Virus record (IMG/VR): IMGVR_UViG_2744054962_000001
DNA: 64,000 nucleotides
Reading direction: 5' to 3' (one strand)
From: a virus
Lineage: Duplodnaviria > Heunggongvirae > Uroviricota > Caudoviricetes
This document shows, piece after piece, positions 14,585 to 17,400 of this stretch (the stretch's first letter is position 1; each line of letters starts with the position of its first letter). The notes below the pieces were generated by a model. It saw only the letters and a list, made by a program, of their open reading frames with translations. It was not told the origin of the DNA and ran no database searches. Position numbers and translations under genes: made by a program.

Positions 14585-15139
14585 TCAATCTTCCCTTTGT
14601 TTTGGGTAGTGTTGTGTTCGTATCGCATAGGAAGCTCCGTCATTTAAATAAGTTAGGCCACGCTCTTGTGTAAATCTCTTCACATATCTCTTGTATGTGG
14701 CCATCAGTTCTTCGCGTTCTGCCGCAAAGAATAAAATCTGTATGCCTTCATTGTCGGCAACTTTGAGCATTAAGTCAACTAAAGTACCGTAAAGGTATTG
14801 AAGTTCACCTAAAGTAAGATTAAAAGACCCTTCGGGTTTGGCAAATACGTTAATTGGCTCTTCCGCTCCAAGAGCAGCATTCTGGAGCTGTTCTTGCTGC
14901 CTGTCAAGTTGAATCATGTCCACAAAACTAACGACAGATACACACAACCCATAAACATCAGCACCTAACATATTATGCATAGTTTCTGCGGCAACAGGAT
15001 CTAAAGAAGGAGGGCAAAAGACTAAACGGTATCTAGCCTTACGAGCTTCATTGCCAGAGAAAACAAAGTCTATATCTAAATATGACAGATCACCCGGCAA
15101 TGAAGCCAAACCAGGTGTAACCAACTTATGCAAGTGCAT
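14585..15139 (-). CDS. Hypothetical protein, minus-strand gene
   Basis: 184-aa ORF opposite to flanking + strand genes; no recognisable motif. Confidence 0.45.
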   Translation of the reverse strand: MHLHKLVTPGLASLPGDLSYLDIDFVFSGNEARKARYRLVFCPPSLDPVAAETMHNMLGADVYGLCVSVVSFVDMIQLDRQQEQLQNAALGAEEPINVFAKPEGSFNLTLGELQYLYGTLVDLMLKVADNEGIQILFFAAEREELMATYKRYVKRFTQERGLTYLNDGASYAIRTQHYPKQRED

Positions 15140-15275
15140 CTGTCTCGAATCCCTCTTTATTAGTATAAGTTGTCTTATTGTACCCTACCAAACGTTTATA
15201 TGCATTGTTATGTATTATTTTGATTTTCAATATTACCTCCTAGAACGAAGGGTAGATTTCAAAAAACGCATCCTT

Positions 15276-15308
15276 AATGATTCCATACCTACTATGTATG
15301 GAATCATT
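15276..15308. promoter_or_regulatory. Candidate recombinase core site or operator: 13-bp perfect inverted repeats flanking 7-bp spacer
   Basis: AATGATTCCATAC ctactat GTATGGAATCATT about 100 bp upstream of the tyrosine recombinase gene. Confidence 0.4.
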
Positions 15309-15406
15309 GCCGAAAATGAGTTACTTTTACTCTTGATCCTATAAGAATCTATGCCTAATATACTGTTTACTTATACAGTACATCGGCGTAACTCGGTGAT
15401 TGTCAT

Positions 15407-16510
15407 ATGAAAAATAGCTTTGACAGAGCACGCGCTGCGGAGAACACCTCAAAAGAGGCGATTGAGTATCTCGAAAGAGCATCTCAAATGCAGGCCGTTA
15501 TGATCTCCCAGGTCAGCAATGACATGAGATTCTCGGACGCATTCATGTTATTCACTCGCTTATCTCTGCTGATAACCAGACGTCGGCCAGAGATCGCTGT
15601 TCATTGTATTTTGATACATGTTTTGCCGCACATTGCCGATGTAAAAGTAAGTGACATTAATAGGTTCATGGTGAACCAACTGGTCAACCCACTAATACTG
15701 GATGGCAAAATTGTTATGGGCCGCCGCGTTTTCTCTCTGATGAAGCAGTTCCTTAGCTGGTGCGCCTTCCAGGGGATGATAGACGTGTCACCGTTAAACG
15801 ATATGTCACTTAACAAAGTTGCCGGTGGCGCAAAGCCCACACCTCGCGAGCGGAAGCTGACCGACGCAGAGGTATGGGTGTTCTGGAATATATGGGACTA
15901 CTTCAATGTGTGTGCTGGTACAAAATGGGCGGCCAGGCTATGTCTTGTATCCGCAAGACGACCTGACGAAGTACTGCGGGCTAAAAAAAGTGAGTTCAAT
16001 CTTAAGCGTGGGGTTTGGAATCAAGGCAAGAGGAACAAATCTGCCCGTGAGCATTCTCTGCCTTTAAGCTCATTAATGCGCACTTGTATTGAAGAGTTGT
16101 TCGAATATGGTAAAGACAGCCAGTGGCTCGTGCCTTCGAATAAAAAAATCGGGAAAGACCTTCCTATGTCTAAAGTGGCAATAGCCCAGGCATTACGTCG
16201 TATTCTGGAACGACCAGAACTGATGGAGCTTGAGCCATTTACACCCCGAGATTTGCGCCGTACTGCGCGTAGTTACTTCCCAGCATTAGGCATAAGCCAG
16301 GAGGTATCACGTAAAATCATGAACCACAGTCTTGAGGGGATAGATCGGGTCTACGACCGGCACGATTATATGGACGAGATGCGAGACGCCTTAGAAAGTT
16401 TCTCGACGTACATCGCATCAATCGTAGAGCAACCGGATTTAGACGAAATTGACCACAAATTCAAGGGAGATCGTCTATCAACAGAGCTTATTCGTGTAAA
16501 TTTTTCATAG
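15407..16510 (+). CDS. Tyrosine recombinase / phage-type integrase
   Basis: C-terminal catalytic region with RDLRRTARS, HSL and RVYDRHDY resembling the R..HxxR..Y signature; true start may be an internal Met. Confidence 0.7.
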   Translation: MKNSFDRARAAENTSKEAIEYLERASQMQAVMISQVSNDMRFSDAFMLFTRLSLLITRRRPEIAVHCILIHVLPHIADVKVSDINRFMVNQLVNPLILDGKIVMGRRVFSLMKQFLSWCAFQGMIDVSPLNDMSLNKVAGGAKPTPRERKLTDAEVWVFWNIWDYFNVCAGTKWAARLCLVSARRPDEVLRAKKSEFNLKRGVWNQGKRNKSAREHSLPLSSLMRTCIEELFEYGKDSQWLVPSNKKIGKDLPMSKVAIAQALRRILERPELMELEPFTPRDLRRTARSYFPALGISQEVSRKIMNHSLEGIDRVYDRHDYMDEMRDALESFSTYIASIVEQPDLDEIDHKFKGDRLSTELIRVNFS

Positions 16511-16891
16511 AGACTTTATGGCCTCAACAACCTTTTGTGATGCGCCTTTCTCTTTACCGAATCGCTCGTTATATGCAGCAAGAACCTGTTTTTCGTCCTC
16601 GTTAAGAGGAGCAGTGCCTTCTTTGTATAAAAATGCTGCGAGTTCGGGTTGGCGTTCTTCCAGCACCATCATCATAAGACGACTTGGCTCAATACCCAGT
16701 GCCAGCGCCAGCGGACGAACCTTATCGATAGGCAAAGGAATTTTGCCGCTTTTAATTAAAGAAAGGTTGTTGGCGTTTTTATACCCAATTGTTTTGGCTA
16801 TCTGGGCCTGGCTCATAGGTGAGGATTCAATCAACCCTGCGATAAAAGCAGCGTAGCGACTTTCTATAAATTCAATCTTGTTATCAGACAT
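16505..16891 (-). CDS. HTH (XRE-family) transcriptional regulator, repressor-like
   Basis: SQAQIAKTIGYKNANNLSLIKSGKIPLP helix-turn-helix; divergent from a small + strand gene. Confidence 0.6.
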   Translation of the reverse strand: MSDNKIEFIESRYAAFIAGLIESSPMSQAQIAKTIGYKNANNLSLIKSGKIPLPIDKVRPLALALGIEPSRLMMMVLEERQPELAAFLYKEGTAPLNEDEKQVLAAYNERFGKEKGASQKVVEAIKSL

Positions 16892-17142
16892 GGTTACAAC
16901 CTTTGCGCGTTCAATTCTCTCTGGTAAGTGCTTACCGATATTACATCAAAGGTTATGGTTGTAAAGCTATTATCATTTTTTTCGATAGGCACTTAAAAGA
17001 CCGGTTAAAGGCCATTGCACGGAGAAAAATTAGCCAAAAATAGGTAAGAAAATCAACTTGCATATGATATGAATGTATTCAGTATTGATACAAATTTTAG
17101 TAGTATTCCTTACCATAGTATAAGTTAGAATGGATTGATTGA

Positions 17143-17355
17143 ATGAACACCACTATTTCCAGCCTAATCGCTCTTGAGATCGGACACGTACAGAAATTAG
17201 TTGATGAGTGTGTAGCTGACATCCTCACCGATCTACCGAATGAGCAGATTCAGGTTGGTGTGAATGACACAACTGGATTTATATTCGAACTTAACAACAA
17301 ACGCTTCACGCTTCTCAATACCGGCTCCGGGTCTTTAGCCGTCAGAATCTGTTAA
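17143..17355 (+). CDS. Small hypothetical protein
   Basis: 70-aa ORF divergent from HTH regulator, followed by hairpin. Confidence 0.35.
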   Translation: MNTTISSLIALEIGHVQKLVDECVADILTDLPNEQIQVGVNDTTGFIFELNNKRFTLLNTGSGSLAVRIC

Positions 17356-17367
17356 CCCCTCTTCTCC

Positions 17368-17400
17368 CTGCGCGAATGGCTTAGTTCCCTGTTCGCGCAG
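17368..17400. terminator. Hairpin (possible terminator)
   Basis: CTGCGCGAA ... TTCGCGCAG 9-bp arms; no clear T tract. Confidence 0.35.

What the first reader, a model, noticed from the sequence alone, without database searches (positions are those of the whole stretch)
14585..17400. Recombinase-regulator block with unexplained minus-strand gene next to the tRNA genes
Downstream of the tRNA cluster lies a unit flanked by terminators: a minus-strand gene of unknown function (14585-15139), the palindrome, the tyrosine recombinase, a convergent XRE-type HTH regulator (16505-16891) and a small divergent gene. A tRNA gene next to an integrase is the usual signature of an integrative element, so this could be either the maintenance/lysogeny control region of the host element or a separate integrated module.
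Basis: inference. Interest (0 to 1): 0.45.

Follow-up and report, generated by a model that had tools for sequence, protein, structure and literature searches.

The report
Lox-like recombination module of a phage-plasmid
The block is not an inserted island. It is the built-in recombinase-plus-target-site and regulator module of an SSU5/pHCM2-type plasmid-prophage, and its target site marks the edge of a slot where relatives carry different cargo genes, including the plague F1 capsule operon.

Summary
The window is an SSU5-supergroup phage-plasmid, 98.9% identical to Escherichia phage Cyrano (pLF82). The ORFs, palindrome, recombinase, HTH gene and small divergent gene exist as described, but they do not form one unit.

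- **Backbone part.** Recombinase, convergent HTH and the 70-aa gene are conserved in the same place in all relatives.
- **Target site.** The palindrome is a 13+7+13 bp lox-like site. All ~150 homologous loci examined have one 40-150 bp upstream of the gene, and its arms co-vary with the protein.
- **Recombinase.** It lacks an arm-binding domain.
- **Not integrative.** In 5,426 complete E. coli genomes the site is found only on plasmids. No tRNA 3' end is repeated downstream.
- **SOS control.** A LexA box overlaps the predicted recombinase promoter in the phage-plasmid lineages.
- **Cargo boundary.** The site is a sharp mosaic boundary: 22 unrelated left flanks against 4 right-flank clusters. 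The left slot holds the caf1 F1-capsule operon in pMT1.
- **The "unexplained" gene.** The 184-aa gene is cargo. It forms a mobile cassette with an overlapping 53-aa ORF, has a GNAT-like fold, and is reported 723-fold above background in lysogens.

Unexplained: three conserved single-arm half-sites, one of them inside dnaE.

In passing: a tmRNA-like structured RNA lies upstream of the tRNAs.

Most likely function: plasmid multimer resolution or circularisation. This is inferred, not shown.

The parts
15276..15308 (.). Core recombination site: 13-bp inverted arms AATGATTCCATAC / GTATGGAATCATT around the asymmetric 7-bp spacer CTACTAT.
   Evidence: A site of the same architecture lies 40-150 bp upstream of every homologous recombinase gene examined. 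Arms co-vary with the protein: ATGATTCCATAC, GTGATTCCATAC, ATGACTCCAGAC, GTGACTCCAGAC. Fourteen different spacers accompany identical arms.
15251..15275 (.). Semi-conserved A-tract motif (tAGAtTTcAAAAAA...) left of the arm; possible accessory part of the site.
   Evidence: It recurs in otherwise unrelated left flanks of 51 distinct loci. Function is inferred only.
15333..15361 (+). Predicted sigma-70 promoter of the recombinase gene: TTGATC, 17-nt spacer, TAATAT.
   Evidence: Read from the sequence. The promoter scan tool did not list it. Conserved in relatives.
15361..15379 (.). LexA (SOS) box TACTGTTTACTTATACAGT, overlapping the -10 hexamer.
   Evidence: It is the only perfect TACTGT-N8-ACAGT in the 64-kb window. 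Conserved in E. coli, both Klebsiella clades, pMT1 and Kluyvera; absent in the megaplasmid homologs. All 59 loci with a box also have the convergent HTH gene.
15407..16510 (+). Tyrosine recombinase, 367 aa, with core-binding and catalytic domains only.
   Evidence: PF00589. Motif positions place R185, K211, R284, H307 and Y316; all are invariant or nearly invariant in alignment A2. AF2 pLDDT 86 with an all-helical N-terminal half. Best Foldseek matches are lambda Int 75-356 and Tn1549 Int. None of the 120 hits listed for this clade has PF13356, which outgroups at <=34% identity carry.
16505..16891 (-). HTH regulator, 128 aa (CYRAN_45), convergent with the recombinase gene and overlapping it by 6 nt.
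   Evidence: Reported 10-fold above background in LF82 lysogens (PMC9928086). A homolog is present, convergent, in all phage-plasmid-type loci and absent from 44 megaplasmid loci.
16923..16936 (.). Candidate operator GGTAAGTGCTTACC, just downstream of the predicted HTH promoter (-35 at 16965-16960, -10 at 16943-16938, minus strand).
   Evidence: Conserved as GGTAAGTACTTACC in Klebsiella pJN2-26. Further GGTAAG and CTTACC copies lie at 17043 and 17109. Inference only.
17143..17355 (+). Small 70-aa gene divergent from the HTH gene, followed by a hairpin at 17368-17400 that has no U-tract.
   Evidence: phrog_2627, E 2.2e-40. Conserved in relatives. Hairpin folding.
14585..15139 (-). 184-aa cargo gene (CYRAN_43) with a GNAT-like fold; part of a mobile two-gene cassette.
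14482..14643 (-). 53-aa ORF overlapping the 3' end of the 184-aa gene; its conserved partner.
   Evidence: phrog_2140, E 3.8e-14. The same overlapping pair occurs in Xenorhabdus and Yersinia chromosomes and in lambdoid prophages. 51% identity to the Xenorhabdus partner.
14439..14462 (.). Bidirectional intrinsic terminator between the glutaredoxin gene and the cassette.
   Evidence: (inverted repeat I21).
12120..12138 (+). Half-site (a): single arm plus ATCTCA, overlapping the start codon of a 50-aa ORF.
   Evidence: Conserved in pJN2-26, pHCM2 and pMT1.
13132..13150 (+). Half-site (b): single arm plus ATCACA, between the tmRNA-like element and tRNA-Asn.
   Evidence: It is an island of identity in poorly conserved flanks. 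The 58% Klebsiella clade carries its own arm variant, GTGATTCCATACATC.
21321..21339 (-). Half-site (c): exact reverse complement of (a), inside the dnaE coding sequence.
   Evidence: The 12-mer is invariant in E. coli, pJN2-26, pHCM2 and pMT1, although it encodes a loop (CMESL) that is not conserved between clades.

Best explanation
The stretch joins two things at the palindrome.

**To the right: conserved backbone of an SSU5-supergroup phage-plasmid.**
- It is a self-contained site-specific recombination system. A tyrosine recombinase with only core-binding and catalytic domains acts on the 13-7-13 site just upstream of its own gene.
- By analogy with Cre/loxP of P1, its most likely job is to convert plasmid multimers to monomers, and possibly to circularise incoming phage DNA. 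It would not integrate into a chromosome.
- In the phage-plasmid lineages its predicted promoter carries a LexA box, so expression should rise on DNA damage.
- Transcription from that promoter runs head-on into the overlapping HTH gene. The HTH gene, the divergent 70-aa gene and a GGTAAG-N2-CTTACC operator look like the element's regulatory switch.

**The site as a crossover point.** Because every family member carries the same arms, the site can also serve as a crossover point between co-resident relatives. That would explain why it is the sharp right-hand edge of a cargo slot.

**To the left: cargo.** Here it is a mobile two-gene cassette (184 aa with a GNAT-like fold, plus 53 aa) that is very highly expressed in lysogens.

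**What is shown:** site architecture, linkage to the gene, arm co-variation, plasmid-only distribution, the mosaic boundary, and conservation of the LexA box.

**What is inferred:** catalysis at this site, the multimer-resolution role, LexA binding, the HTH role, and the cassette function.
For: **Host element**
- 98.9% identical to Escherichia phage Cyrano, which is the plasmid pLF82 at 5.5 copies per cell (PMC9928086).

**Site-gene linkage and co-variation**
- Established. The family includes non-phage Pantoea, Rahnella and Erwinia megaplasmids.

**One site per replicon, plasmids only**
- 216 of 5,426 E. coli genomes carry it, with 0 places on chromosomes. The two places per record are the two strands of one palindrome.

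**No arm-binding domain**
-.

**Catalytic residues conserved**
-.

**Site polarity relative to the gene is not fixed**
- Four spacers occur in both orientations. This is expected for a simple site whose function does not depend on its flanks.

**Mosaic boundary**
- Collinear 96-98% identity starts at 15272-15276 in three E. coli relatives.
- 22 left-flank clusters against 4 right-flank clusters.
- In 10 locus pairs the left flank is 89-92% identical while the right flank is only 69-75% identical.
- Of 560 pairs with >=97% identical right flanks, 226 have unrelated left flanks.

**LexA box**
-. Cyrano is induced 39-fold by ciprofloxacin.

**Literature**
- Tyrosine recombinases are persistent genes of the SSU5 supergroup (PMC7969092).
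Against: - No experiment shows recombination at this site.
- LexA repression implies low expression during normal growth, which is odd for a housekeeping resolvase.
- The semi-conserved flanking A-tract motifs suggest the site may not be as simple as loxP.
- The three conserved half-sites are not predicted by a pure multimer-resolution model.
- No plasmid with two full sites, which would be a trapped cointegrate, was seen among the 216 E. coli genomes carrying the site. Recombinase-mediated cargo exchange is therefore inferred from mosaic patterns alone. Purifying selection on the site together with ordinary recombination could give a similar boundary.
- SSU5-type elements also carry other recombination genes.
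Confidence: 0.6

Rival explanations
1. One reading: the recombinase is an integrase, and the block is a separately integrated module, or the means by which the whole element integrates, using a tRNA gene as attachment site.
For: - The enzyme's nearest outgroups are P4-type integrases (PF13356 + PF00589; NCBIfam PRK09692).
- tRNA genes lie 1-2 kb upstream.
- The arm shares GATTCCAT with the T-arm of the plasmid's tRNA-Ser (sequence).
Against: - No tRNA-end repeats.
- The block is conserved in place in all relatives.
- The site is never chromosomal in 5,426 E. coli genomes.
- No arm-binding domain.
- The site is a symmetric palindrome next to the gene whose polarity flips, unlike an attP with ordered arm sites.
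- The literature describes integrated phage-plasmids as rare and defective (PMC12977533).
Confidence: 0.04
2. SOS-triggered switch by convergent transcription. On DNA damage LexA leaves the recombinase promoter. Transcription through the recombinase gene then collides with, or is antisense to, the overlapping HTH repressor gene. Repressor levels fall and the phage-plasmid tips into lytic growth. This can coexist with the main explanation.
For: - The two genes converge and overlap by 6 nt, with no terminator between them. The overlap is kept in pJN2-26, pHCM2 and pMT1 (6-9 nt) and in the 58% Klebsiella clade (11 nt).
- All 59 loci with a LexA box have the convergent HTH gene. Megaplasmid homologs have neither.
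- The HTH protein has no S24 autocleavage domain.
- Cyrano is SOS-inducible.
- Precedent: N15 uses a LexA-controlled antirepressor (PMC11652158).
Against: - It is not shown that the HTH protein is the lysogeny repressor.
- Cyrano also encodes a LexA-like S24 peptidase elsewhere (CYRAN_98).
- Eleven loci have the HTH gene without a canonical box.
- No transcript data were examined.
Confidence: 0.25
3. The recombinase also, or mainly, acts as a sequence-specific DNA-binding regulator or architectural protein, with the single-arm half-sites as its operators. The precedent is the recombinase-like SPbeta master regulator MrpR.
For: - Three exact single arms cluster within 9.2 kb of the gene, and there are none in the other ~99 kb of Cyrano.
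- They are conserved across clades at the DNA level, including inside a non-conserved DnaE loop.
- MrpR appears among the fold matches (rank 32).
Against: - The catalytic residues are fully conserved, unlike inactive regulator derivatives.
- Megaplasmid and Providencia homologs show no extra arms within the 25-36 kb fetched.
- Only three sites exist, and there is no obvious promoter logic. One is at a start codon, one is intergenic and one lies inside dnaE.
Confidence: 0.12
4. Invertible-segment switch: the inverted 19-bp repeats at 12120 and 21321 flip the 9.2-kb segment.
For: A perfect 19-bp inverted repeat brackets the recombinase gene.
Against: - All ~95 loci are collinear in one orientation.
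- Inversion would cut off the first 88 codons of dnaE.
- Each repeat has only one arm.
Confidence: 0.02

Closest known systems
Cre/loxP of phage-plasmid P1 (and its relatives Dre/rox, VCre/VloxP, Vika/vox, Nigri/nox, Panto/pox)
   Same: - A plasmid-prophage encodes a two-domain tyrosine recombinase.
- Its target is a simple site of two 13-bp inverted repeats around a short asymmetric spacer, placed next to the gene.
- There is one site per replicon.
- The expected role is multimer resolution or cyclisation.
- The site acts as a recombination hotspot between related elements.
   Different: - The spacer is 7 bp, not 8.
- There is no detectable sequence relationship to Cre: no PDB sequence hit, and Foldseek to Cre gives only E~1e-2 with TM ~0.45, against lambda Int at E~1e-6.
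- The enzyme descends from the P4/lambda integrase lineage.
- It has a LexA box and a convergent HTH partner.
- It has conserved dispersed half-sites and semi-conserved A-tract flanks.
- It is untested experimentally.
- Panto is a Dre homolog, not this enzyme (PMC4957104).
P4-type (tRNA/tmRNA-targeting) integrases such as IntS and CP4-57 Int
   Same: - Closest sequence relatives outside the clade.
- The C-terminal motif ...HS..G....Y.R.DY..E is of the P4 type (own knowledge).
- A 7-bp crossover region flanked by inverted core sites is typical of these enzymes (own knowledge).
   Different: - No PF13356 arm-binding domain (tested, not met).
- No arm-type sites.
- No tRNA attB repeats.
- Never chromosomal in E. 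coli.
TnpI/IRS of Tn4430 and other tyrosine-recombinase resolution systems with extra recombinase-binding repeats
   Same: A tyrosine recombinase with an inverted-repeat core plus additional single binding motifs of the same sequence (own knowledge of TnpI DR1/DR2).
   Different: In TnpI the accessory motifs abut the core within ~116 bp. Here the single arms are 2-6 kb away, and one lies inside a gene.
LexA-controlled induction modules of phage-plasmids (N15 antC, GIL01)
   Same: An extrachromosomal prophage is wired to the host SOS response through a LexA box rather than a self-cleaving repressor (PMC11652158).
   Different: Here the LexA-controlled gene is a recombinase converging on an HTH gene. 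No antirepressor has been identified.

Membership tests
Tyrosine recombinase superfamily (PF00589) | Significant match to the catalytic-domain profile, above the curated cutoff. | tested here: met
   PF00589, 40.6 bits against a cutoff of 27.1, E 2.9e-10. phrog_1 integrase, E 4.8e-47.
Tyrosine recombinase superfamily (PF00589) | Catalytic R-K-H-R-H/W-Y residues. | tested here: met
   R185, R284 and Y316 are invariant in alignment A2; K211 and H307 are nearly invariant. The first His of HxxR is Arg281 in this protein. Activity itself was not tested.
Tyrosine recombinase superfamily (PF00589) | Two-domain fold: helical core-binding domain plus catalytic domain. | tested here: met
   AF2 pLDDT 86. 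Foldseek probability 1.00 to lambda Int, Tn1549 Int, XerH, IntI and Cre.
Cre/loxP-type simple recombinase-site systems | Target is two ~13-bp inverted repeats flanking a 6-8 bp asymmetric spacer, close to the recombinase gene. | tested here: met
   13+7+13 at 15276-15308, 98 bp before the ATG. The same holds in all homologous loci.
Cre/loxP-type simple recombinase-site systems | Recombinase without an arm-binding domain. | tested here: met
   None of the 120 listed clade hits has PF13356 or PF09003. The N-terminal half is all-helical.
Cre/loxP-type simple recombinase-site systems | Recombination of two minimal sites without accessory factors. | not testable with these tools
   Needs an in vivo or in vitro assay. 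The semi-conserved flanking motifs leave this open.
Cre/loxP-type simple recombinase-site systems | Homology to the Cre clade. | tested here: not met
   No PDB sequence hit at E<=1. Cre ranks 36th or lower by fold, at E~7e-3. The enzyme therefore works like Cre/loxP but is not a member of that clade.
Heterobivalent phage/island integrases (lambda/P4 type) | N-terminal arm-binding domain. | tested here: not met
Heterobivalent phage/island integrases (lambda/P4 type) | Element bounded by direct repeats of the target, such as a tRNA 3' end. | tested here: not met
Heterobivalent phage/island integrases (lambda/P4 type) | Presence/absence polymorphism of the module, and chromosomal occurrence. | tested here: not met
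   The module is present and collinear in all relatives. There are 0 chromosomal sites in 5,426 E. coli genomes.
LexA (SOS) regulon | CTGT-N8-ACAG box overlapping a promoter, conserved in orthologous positions. | tested here: met
LexA (SOS) regulon | LexA binding and damage-inducible transcription. | not testable with these tools
   Only indirect evidence: the element is ciprofloxacin-inducible.
XRE-type HTH regulators | Profile match above the curated threshold. | tested here: inconclusive
   HTH_19 scores 19.7 bits, below its 30.2 cutoff. PHROG 8 gives E 1.3e-11. Weak PADLOC HTH and control-protein hits.
GNAT acyltransferases (for the 184-aa cargo protein) | GNAT fold plus an acetyl-CoA pyrophosphate-binding motif. 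| tested here: inconclusive
tmRNA (for the element noticed at ~12600-13100) | Alanine-accepting tRNA-like domain plus a tag reading frame; score above Rfam gathering. | tested here: inconclusive
   A tag-like frame ANEEVYLAVA** is present and conserved. Rfam gives 14-17 bits against gathering scores of 47-84. ARAGORN is negative in the window and in 12 relatives.

The most novel reading that the evidence does not exclude
The recombinase, its full site and the conserved single arms form more than a resolvase.
- It would be an SOS-controlled system that gates the phage-plasmid's lysis decision, through transcription converging on the HTH gene.
- It would also drive exchange of whole cargo blocks between co-resident SSU5-type elements at a fixed crossover point. 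Virulence operons such as the Y. pestis F1 capsule locus would then have been placed in this slot by recombinase-mediated exchange.
- The half-sites, including one maintained by DNA-level selection inside dnaE, would be functional recombinase-binding sites.
Probability: 0.2. Interest if true: 0.7.

Novelty: new variant of a known kind. Interest (0 to 1): 0.5.

Why it matters
- **Annotation.** It corrects a common habit. The 'integrase' carried by about a thousand SSU5/pHCM2/pMT1-type plasmids in PLSDB is most likely a plasmid-maintenance recombinase with its own lox-like site, not evidence of integration.
- **A candidate tool.** It defines a compact recombinase/site pair not described in the literature I searched: a 13-7-13 site with 14 natural spacer variants. 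This is a candidate orthogonal tool alongside Cre, Dre and VCre.
- **Cargo hotspot.** It locates a cargo hotspot in medically important phage-plasmids. The slot next to the site holds the caf1 capsule operon in pMT1 and a chaperone-usher operon in PhiR41_1. A survey reports AMR transposons 'near tRNA loci' (10.1101/2025.09.12.675607).
- **SOS induction.** It gives a testable route by which these elements sense DNA damage.

Tried and rejected
- **Inversion between the inverted 19-mers:** no inverted arrangement in ~95 loci.
- **Half-sites as a conserved mini-ORF MIPYI-x-stop:** this reading holds in several E. coli and Klebsiella copies. The stop is lost in the dnaE copies of pHCM2 and pMT1, so I dropped it.
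- **Identity with Panto/pox or the 2023 Cre-type set:** Panto is a Dre homolog. The arm sequence is absent from the main text of PMC10250229; its supplements were not searched.
- **Defence-system assignment of the 184-aa/53-aa cassette:** no PADLOC hit.
- **Cointegrates retaining two full sites:** none among the 216 E. coli genomes carrying the site.
- **Census of half-sites in IMG/VR with a 15-base pattern**: swamped by chance hits. It was useful only for showing that the (a)+(b) pair, ~1,010 bp apart, recurs.
- **In alignment A4**, the pMT1 row used guessed coordinates and is not homologous. Ignore that row.
- **One script timed out** and was redone.
- **The 2026 heteroresistance preprint** could not be read.

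
Full report
**What the window is.** The region 13000-18000 is 98.9% identical over its full length to Escherichia phage Cyrano (OV696614), with partial matches to other ~108-kb E. coli and Klebsiella 'phages'. Cyrano is plasmid pLF82 of E. coli LF82. It is an SSU5-like phage-plasmid kept at 5.5 copies per cell, and ciprofloxacin induces it 39-fold (PMC9928086). The surrounding genes fit this identity: ATP-dependent ligase, gp49-like protein, glutaredoxin, CobT/CobS-like proteins and DnaE.

**Checking the observation.**
- The recombinase passes Pfam PF00589. 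The HTH call is weaker: HTH_19 is below its cutoff, while PHROG 8 gives E 1.3e-11.
- The palindrome is AATGATTCCATAC-CTACTAT-GTATGGAATCATT at 15276-15308.
- The left terminator (14439-14462) is a good bidirectional hairpin. The right 'terminator' (17368-17400) is a hairpin without a U-tract.
- The tRNA genes (Asn, Thr, Ser; 13339-13586) are 1 kb away, with two genes in between.
- A 53-aa ORF (14482-14643, minus strand) overlapping the end of the 184-aa gene had been missed.

**The integrative-element idea fails.**
The longest exact matches of tRNA 3' ends elsewhere are 9-12 nt, equal to shuffled controls. No copy of the 3' 20-mers with <=4 mismatches lies downstream.
- Recombinase, HTH gene and 70-aa gene sit in the same position and orientation, between a variable zone and cobT-cobS-dnaE. 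This holds in E. coli PhiR41_1 and CMS-2020a, Klebsiella pJN2-26, two ~58%-identity Klebsiella plasmids, Salmonella Typhi pHCM2 and Y. pestis pMT1. About 95 loci show one gene order with no inversion.
- In 5,426 complete E. coli genomes the site occurs in 216, always on plasmids. There are 430 places, which are the two strands of one palindrome per record, and none is on a chromosome.

**The recombinase and its site.**
- tblastn finds the protein in 1,081 PLSDB plasmids. The 5.8-billion-protein search finds an Enterobacterales clade down to ~44% identity. None of the listed clade hits carries the P4-type arm-binding domain PF13356. The next relatives, at <=34% identity, do carry it.
- The AlphaFold model (pLDDT 86) has an all-helical N-terminal half followed by the catalytic domain. 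Its best structural matches are lambda Int residues 75-356 and Tn1549 Int. Cre ranks far lower, and there is no PDB hit by sequence.
- The catalytic residues R185, K211, R284, H307 and Y316 are conserved.
- Every homolog examined has a 12-13 + 7 + 12-13 bp inverted repeat 40-150 bp upstream of the gene. That covers 8 annotated relatives, 56 of the 58 species loci from a cross-genome pattern scan, and 87 loci in the viral-contig analysis (76 from that scan plus 11 earlier ones). The other two species loci were too short to include the gene.
- The arms co-vary with the protein. They are ATGATTCCATAC in E. coli, Klebsiella, Salmonella and Yersinia; GTGATTCCATAC in the 58% Klebsiella clade; and (A/G)TGACTCCAGAC in Providencia, Pantoea, Rahnella, Erwinia and Xenorhabdus.
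- The family includes 250-600-kb megaplasmids with no phage genes. The pair is therefore a plasmid function rather than a phage-integration function.
- With identical arms, 14 different spacers occur. Four of them occur in both polarities relative to the gene: CTACTAT/ATAGTAG, CTATTAA/TTAATAG, CTATAGA/TCTATAG and TTATATA/TATATAA. Free polarity is what one expects of a simple lox-like site. It is not expected of an attP core embedded between ordered arm sites.
- The literature I could search describes tyrosine recombinases as persistent SSU5-group genes (PMC7969092). I found no description of this site. Panto/pox is a Dre relative, and the arm sequence is absent from the main text of the 2023 Cre-type survey.

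**SOS control and the regulator.**
- Between the site and the start codon lies a predicted promoter TTGATC-N17-TAATAT, read from the sequence. TACTGTTTACTTATACAGT (15361-15379) overlaps its -10 hexamer.
- This is the only perfect TACTGT-N8-ACAGT in the window.
- The box is conserved in E. coli, both Klebsiella clades, pMT1 and Kluyvera. It is degenerate in a few loci and absent from the megaplasmid, Providencia and Xenorhabdus versions.
- Among loci with a complete gene and enough downstream sequence, 59 have both the box and a convergent HTH homolog. Another 44 have neither, and 11 have the HTH gene without a canonical box.
- The recombinase and HTH genes overlap at their 3' ends: 6 nt here, 6-9 nt in pJN2-26, pHCM2 and pMT1, and 11 nt in the 58% Klebsiella clade. 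No terminator can separate them.
- The HTH gene is expressed in lysogens at 10-fold above background.
- Its upstream region contains a conserved palindrome GGTAAGT(G/A)CTTACC, just downstream of a predicted promoter. Further half-copies lie towards the 70-aa gene.
- I read this as a small regulatory switch. Convergent, LexA-released transcription might lower HTH expression on DNA damage. This is inference.

**The site is a mosaic boundary and the left side is cargo.**
- Against three close E. coli relatives, the 96-98% collinear block starts at 15272-15276, the outer edge of the left arm.
- Across 85 sites the 250 bp to the left fall into 22 unrelated clusters. The 250 bp to the right fall into 4 clusters that simply follow recombinase divergence.
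- Ten locus pairs have left flanks 89-92% identical but right flanks only 69-75% identical. Conversely, 226 of 560 pairs with >=97% identical right flanks share nothing on the left.
- A degenerate A-tract motif persists 10-25 bp left of the arm even in unrelated flanks. This suggests each cargo block arrived with its own left half of an extended site.
- The slot holds different cargo in different elements:
  - pMT1: caf1R-caf1M-caf1A-caf1, the F1 capsule operon.
  - PhiR41_1: what looks from gene sizes and an AraC-type regulator like a chaperone-usher operon.
  - A Klebsiella plasmid: PhoH and a YafO toxin.
  - This window: the 184-aa gene.
- No plasmid retaining two full sites was seen. Recombinase-driven exchange is therefore a reasonable inference, not a demonstration.

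**The 'unexplained' minus-strand gene.**
- It has no Pfam, NCBIfam or PADLOC match.
- It has 29 homologs. In all three homolog contexts examined it is followed by an overlapping 48-53-aa ORF.
- The pair occurs in phage-plasmids, next to the integrase of lambdoid prophages, and as two-gene islets in Yersinia and Xenorhabdus chromosomes.
- In LF82 it is the most strongly expressed Cyrano gene listed, at 723-fold above local background.
- It is best described as a mobile, lysogen-expressed two-gene moron of unknown function. A toxin-antitoxin or exclusion role is a guess.

**Half-sites (unexplained).**
- The 13-mer arm occurs exactly five times in the window: twice in the palindrome, and once each at 12120(+), 13132(+) and 21327(-). 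By my arithmetic about 0.002 exact copies would be expected by chance.
- The other 44.7 kb of Cyrano has none, even allowing one mismatch.
- Each single arm is followed by AT(C/T). The copies at 12120 and 21321-21339 form a perfect 19-bp inverted repeat.
- The copies are conserved in pJN2-26, pHCM2 and pMT1. pMT1 lost copy (b) together with the tRNA region. The 58% Klebsiella clade has one copy with its own G-variant arm.
- The dnaE copy lies in a loop whose amino acids differ between clades (CMESL, EIPVC, QLPVN). Even so, the 12-mer is invariant within the clade that has it. That points to selection on the DNA.
- The half-sites do not drive inversions.
- Recombinase binding for a regulatory or architectural purpose, or old recombination scars kept for another reason, both remain possible.

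**Comparison and verdict.**
- The module works like Cre/loxP of P1 but is not a member of the Cre clade. It descends from the P4/lambda integrase lineage and has lost the arm-binding domain.
- New relative to described systems are the LexA box, the overlapping convergent HTH gene, the 7-bp spacer with many natural variants, the dispersed single arms and the cargo boundary.
- I rate it a new variant of a known kind, of moderate interest (0.5).
- The main open points are experimental: catalysis at the site, LexA binding, and the role of the half-sites.

**Seen in passing.**
- The 'noncoding' stretch ~12600-13100 is highly conserved. It folds into a consensus structure with 24 pairs carrying double-sided compensatory changes.
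- It also carries a tmRNA-like tag frame: GCA AAC GAA GAA GTC TAT CTG GCA GTA GCC TAA TAA, which reads ANEEVYLAVA**. In Klebsiella the frame reads ANDNQYLAVA*.
- Rfam tmRNA models align to this part but score far below threshold. ARAGORN finds no tmRNA here or in 12 relatives.
- This deserves its own follow-up.

Noticed in passing
window ~12600-13100 (+), tag-like frame at 12652-12687: A conserved structured noncoding element sits just upstream of the tRNA genes. It carries a tmRNA-like tag frame, ANEEVYLAVA-stop-stop (Klebsiella: ANDNQYLAVA). Fifty distinct homologs were found, including in pHCM2 and pMT1, and the consensus fold has 24 pairs with double-sided compensatory changes. Rfam tmRNA models score only 14-17 bits and ARAGORN is negative, so it may be a divergent, permuted or tRNA-domain-less tmRNA-like RNA.
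   Followed up: partly
L295 (Y. pestis pMT, NZ_CP009714) 6115-11243, next to the site at 11872: The F1 capsule operon caf1R-caf1M-caf1A-caf1 occupies the variable cargo slot immediately left of the lox-like site. It replaces the tRNA region and half-site (b).
   Followed up: partly
L003 (PhiR41_1, PV340561) 14906-19600: The same slot holds four genes that look, from their sizes and an AraC/GadW-type regulator, like a chaperone-usher fimbrial operon. They are bounded by a single arm at 14114 and the full site at 20003. Here the spacer is flipped (ATAGTAG) relative to the window.
   Followed up: no
window 13565-13572 versus 15279-15286: The recombinase-binding arm (TGATTCCATAC) shares GATTCCAT with the T-arm of the plasmid's tRNA-Ser (GTTCGATTCCATTAC). 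The Pantoea-type arm (TGACTCCAGAC) also looks T-loop-like. The site may descend from a tRNA-gene att core of a P4-type ancestor. This is speculation.
   Followed up: no
window 13589-13666: A very stable 25-bp-arm hairpin lies directly after tRNA-Ser (-40 kcal/mol, z -8.7). A separate terminator hairpin follows at 13742-13765.
   Followed up: no
window 13339-13498: tRNA-Asn and tRNA-Thr are ~92% identical to those of phages P1, P7 and D6. tRNA content differs among relatives: Asn/Tyr/Thr/Ser, Asn/Ser, Phe/Gln, or none. The tRNA cluster is therefore itself part of the variable zone.
   Followed up: partly
L004:20736, L294:12607, L295:12607, L007:20607 (minus strand, inside the recombinase gene); degenerate at window 16013: A near-copy of the half-site, (T/C)TGATTCCATACAT, lies inside the recombinase coding sequence of relatives. 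It encodes the conserved VWNQG motif. In the window it has three mismatches. It may be coincidence from coding constraint.
   Followed up: no
window ~63630-64000 (Cyrano CYRAN_98, 89311-89700): Cyrano annotates a LexA-like S24 peptidase here, at the far end of the window. It is a second possible link between the element and the SOS response, and it bears on which protein is the lysogeny repressor.
   Followed up: no
window 11746-11925 and 12121-12273: Two small predicted membrane proteins (59 and 50 aa) appear to be paralogs...GRIYRIVE... versus ...KRVYRVVHE.... The second starts exactly at half-site (a).
   Followed up: no
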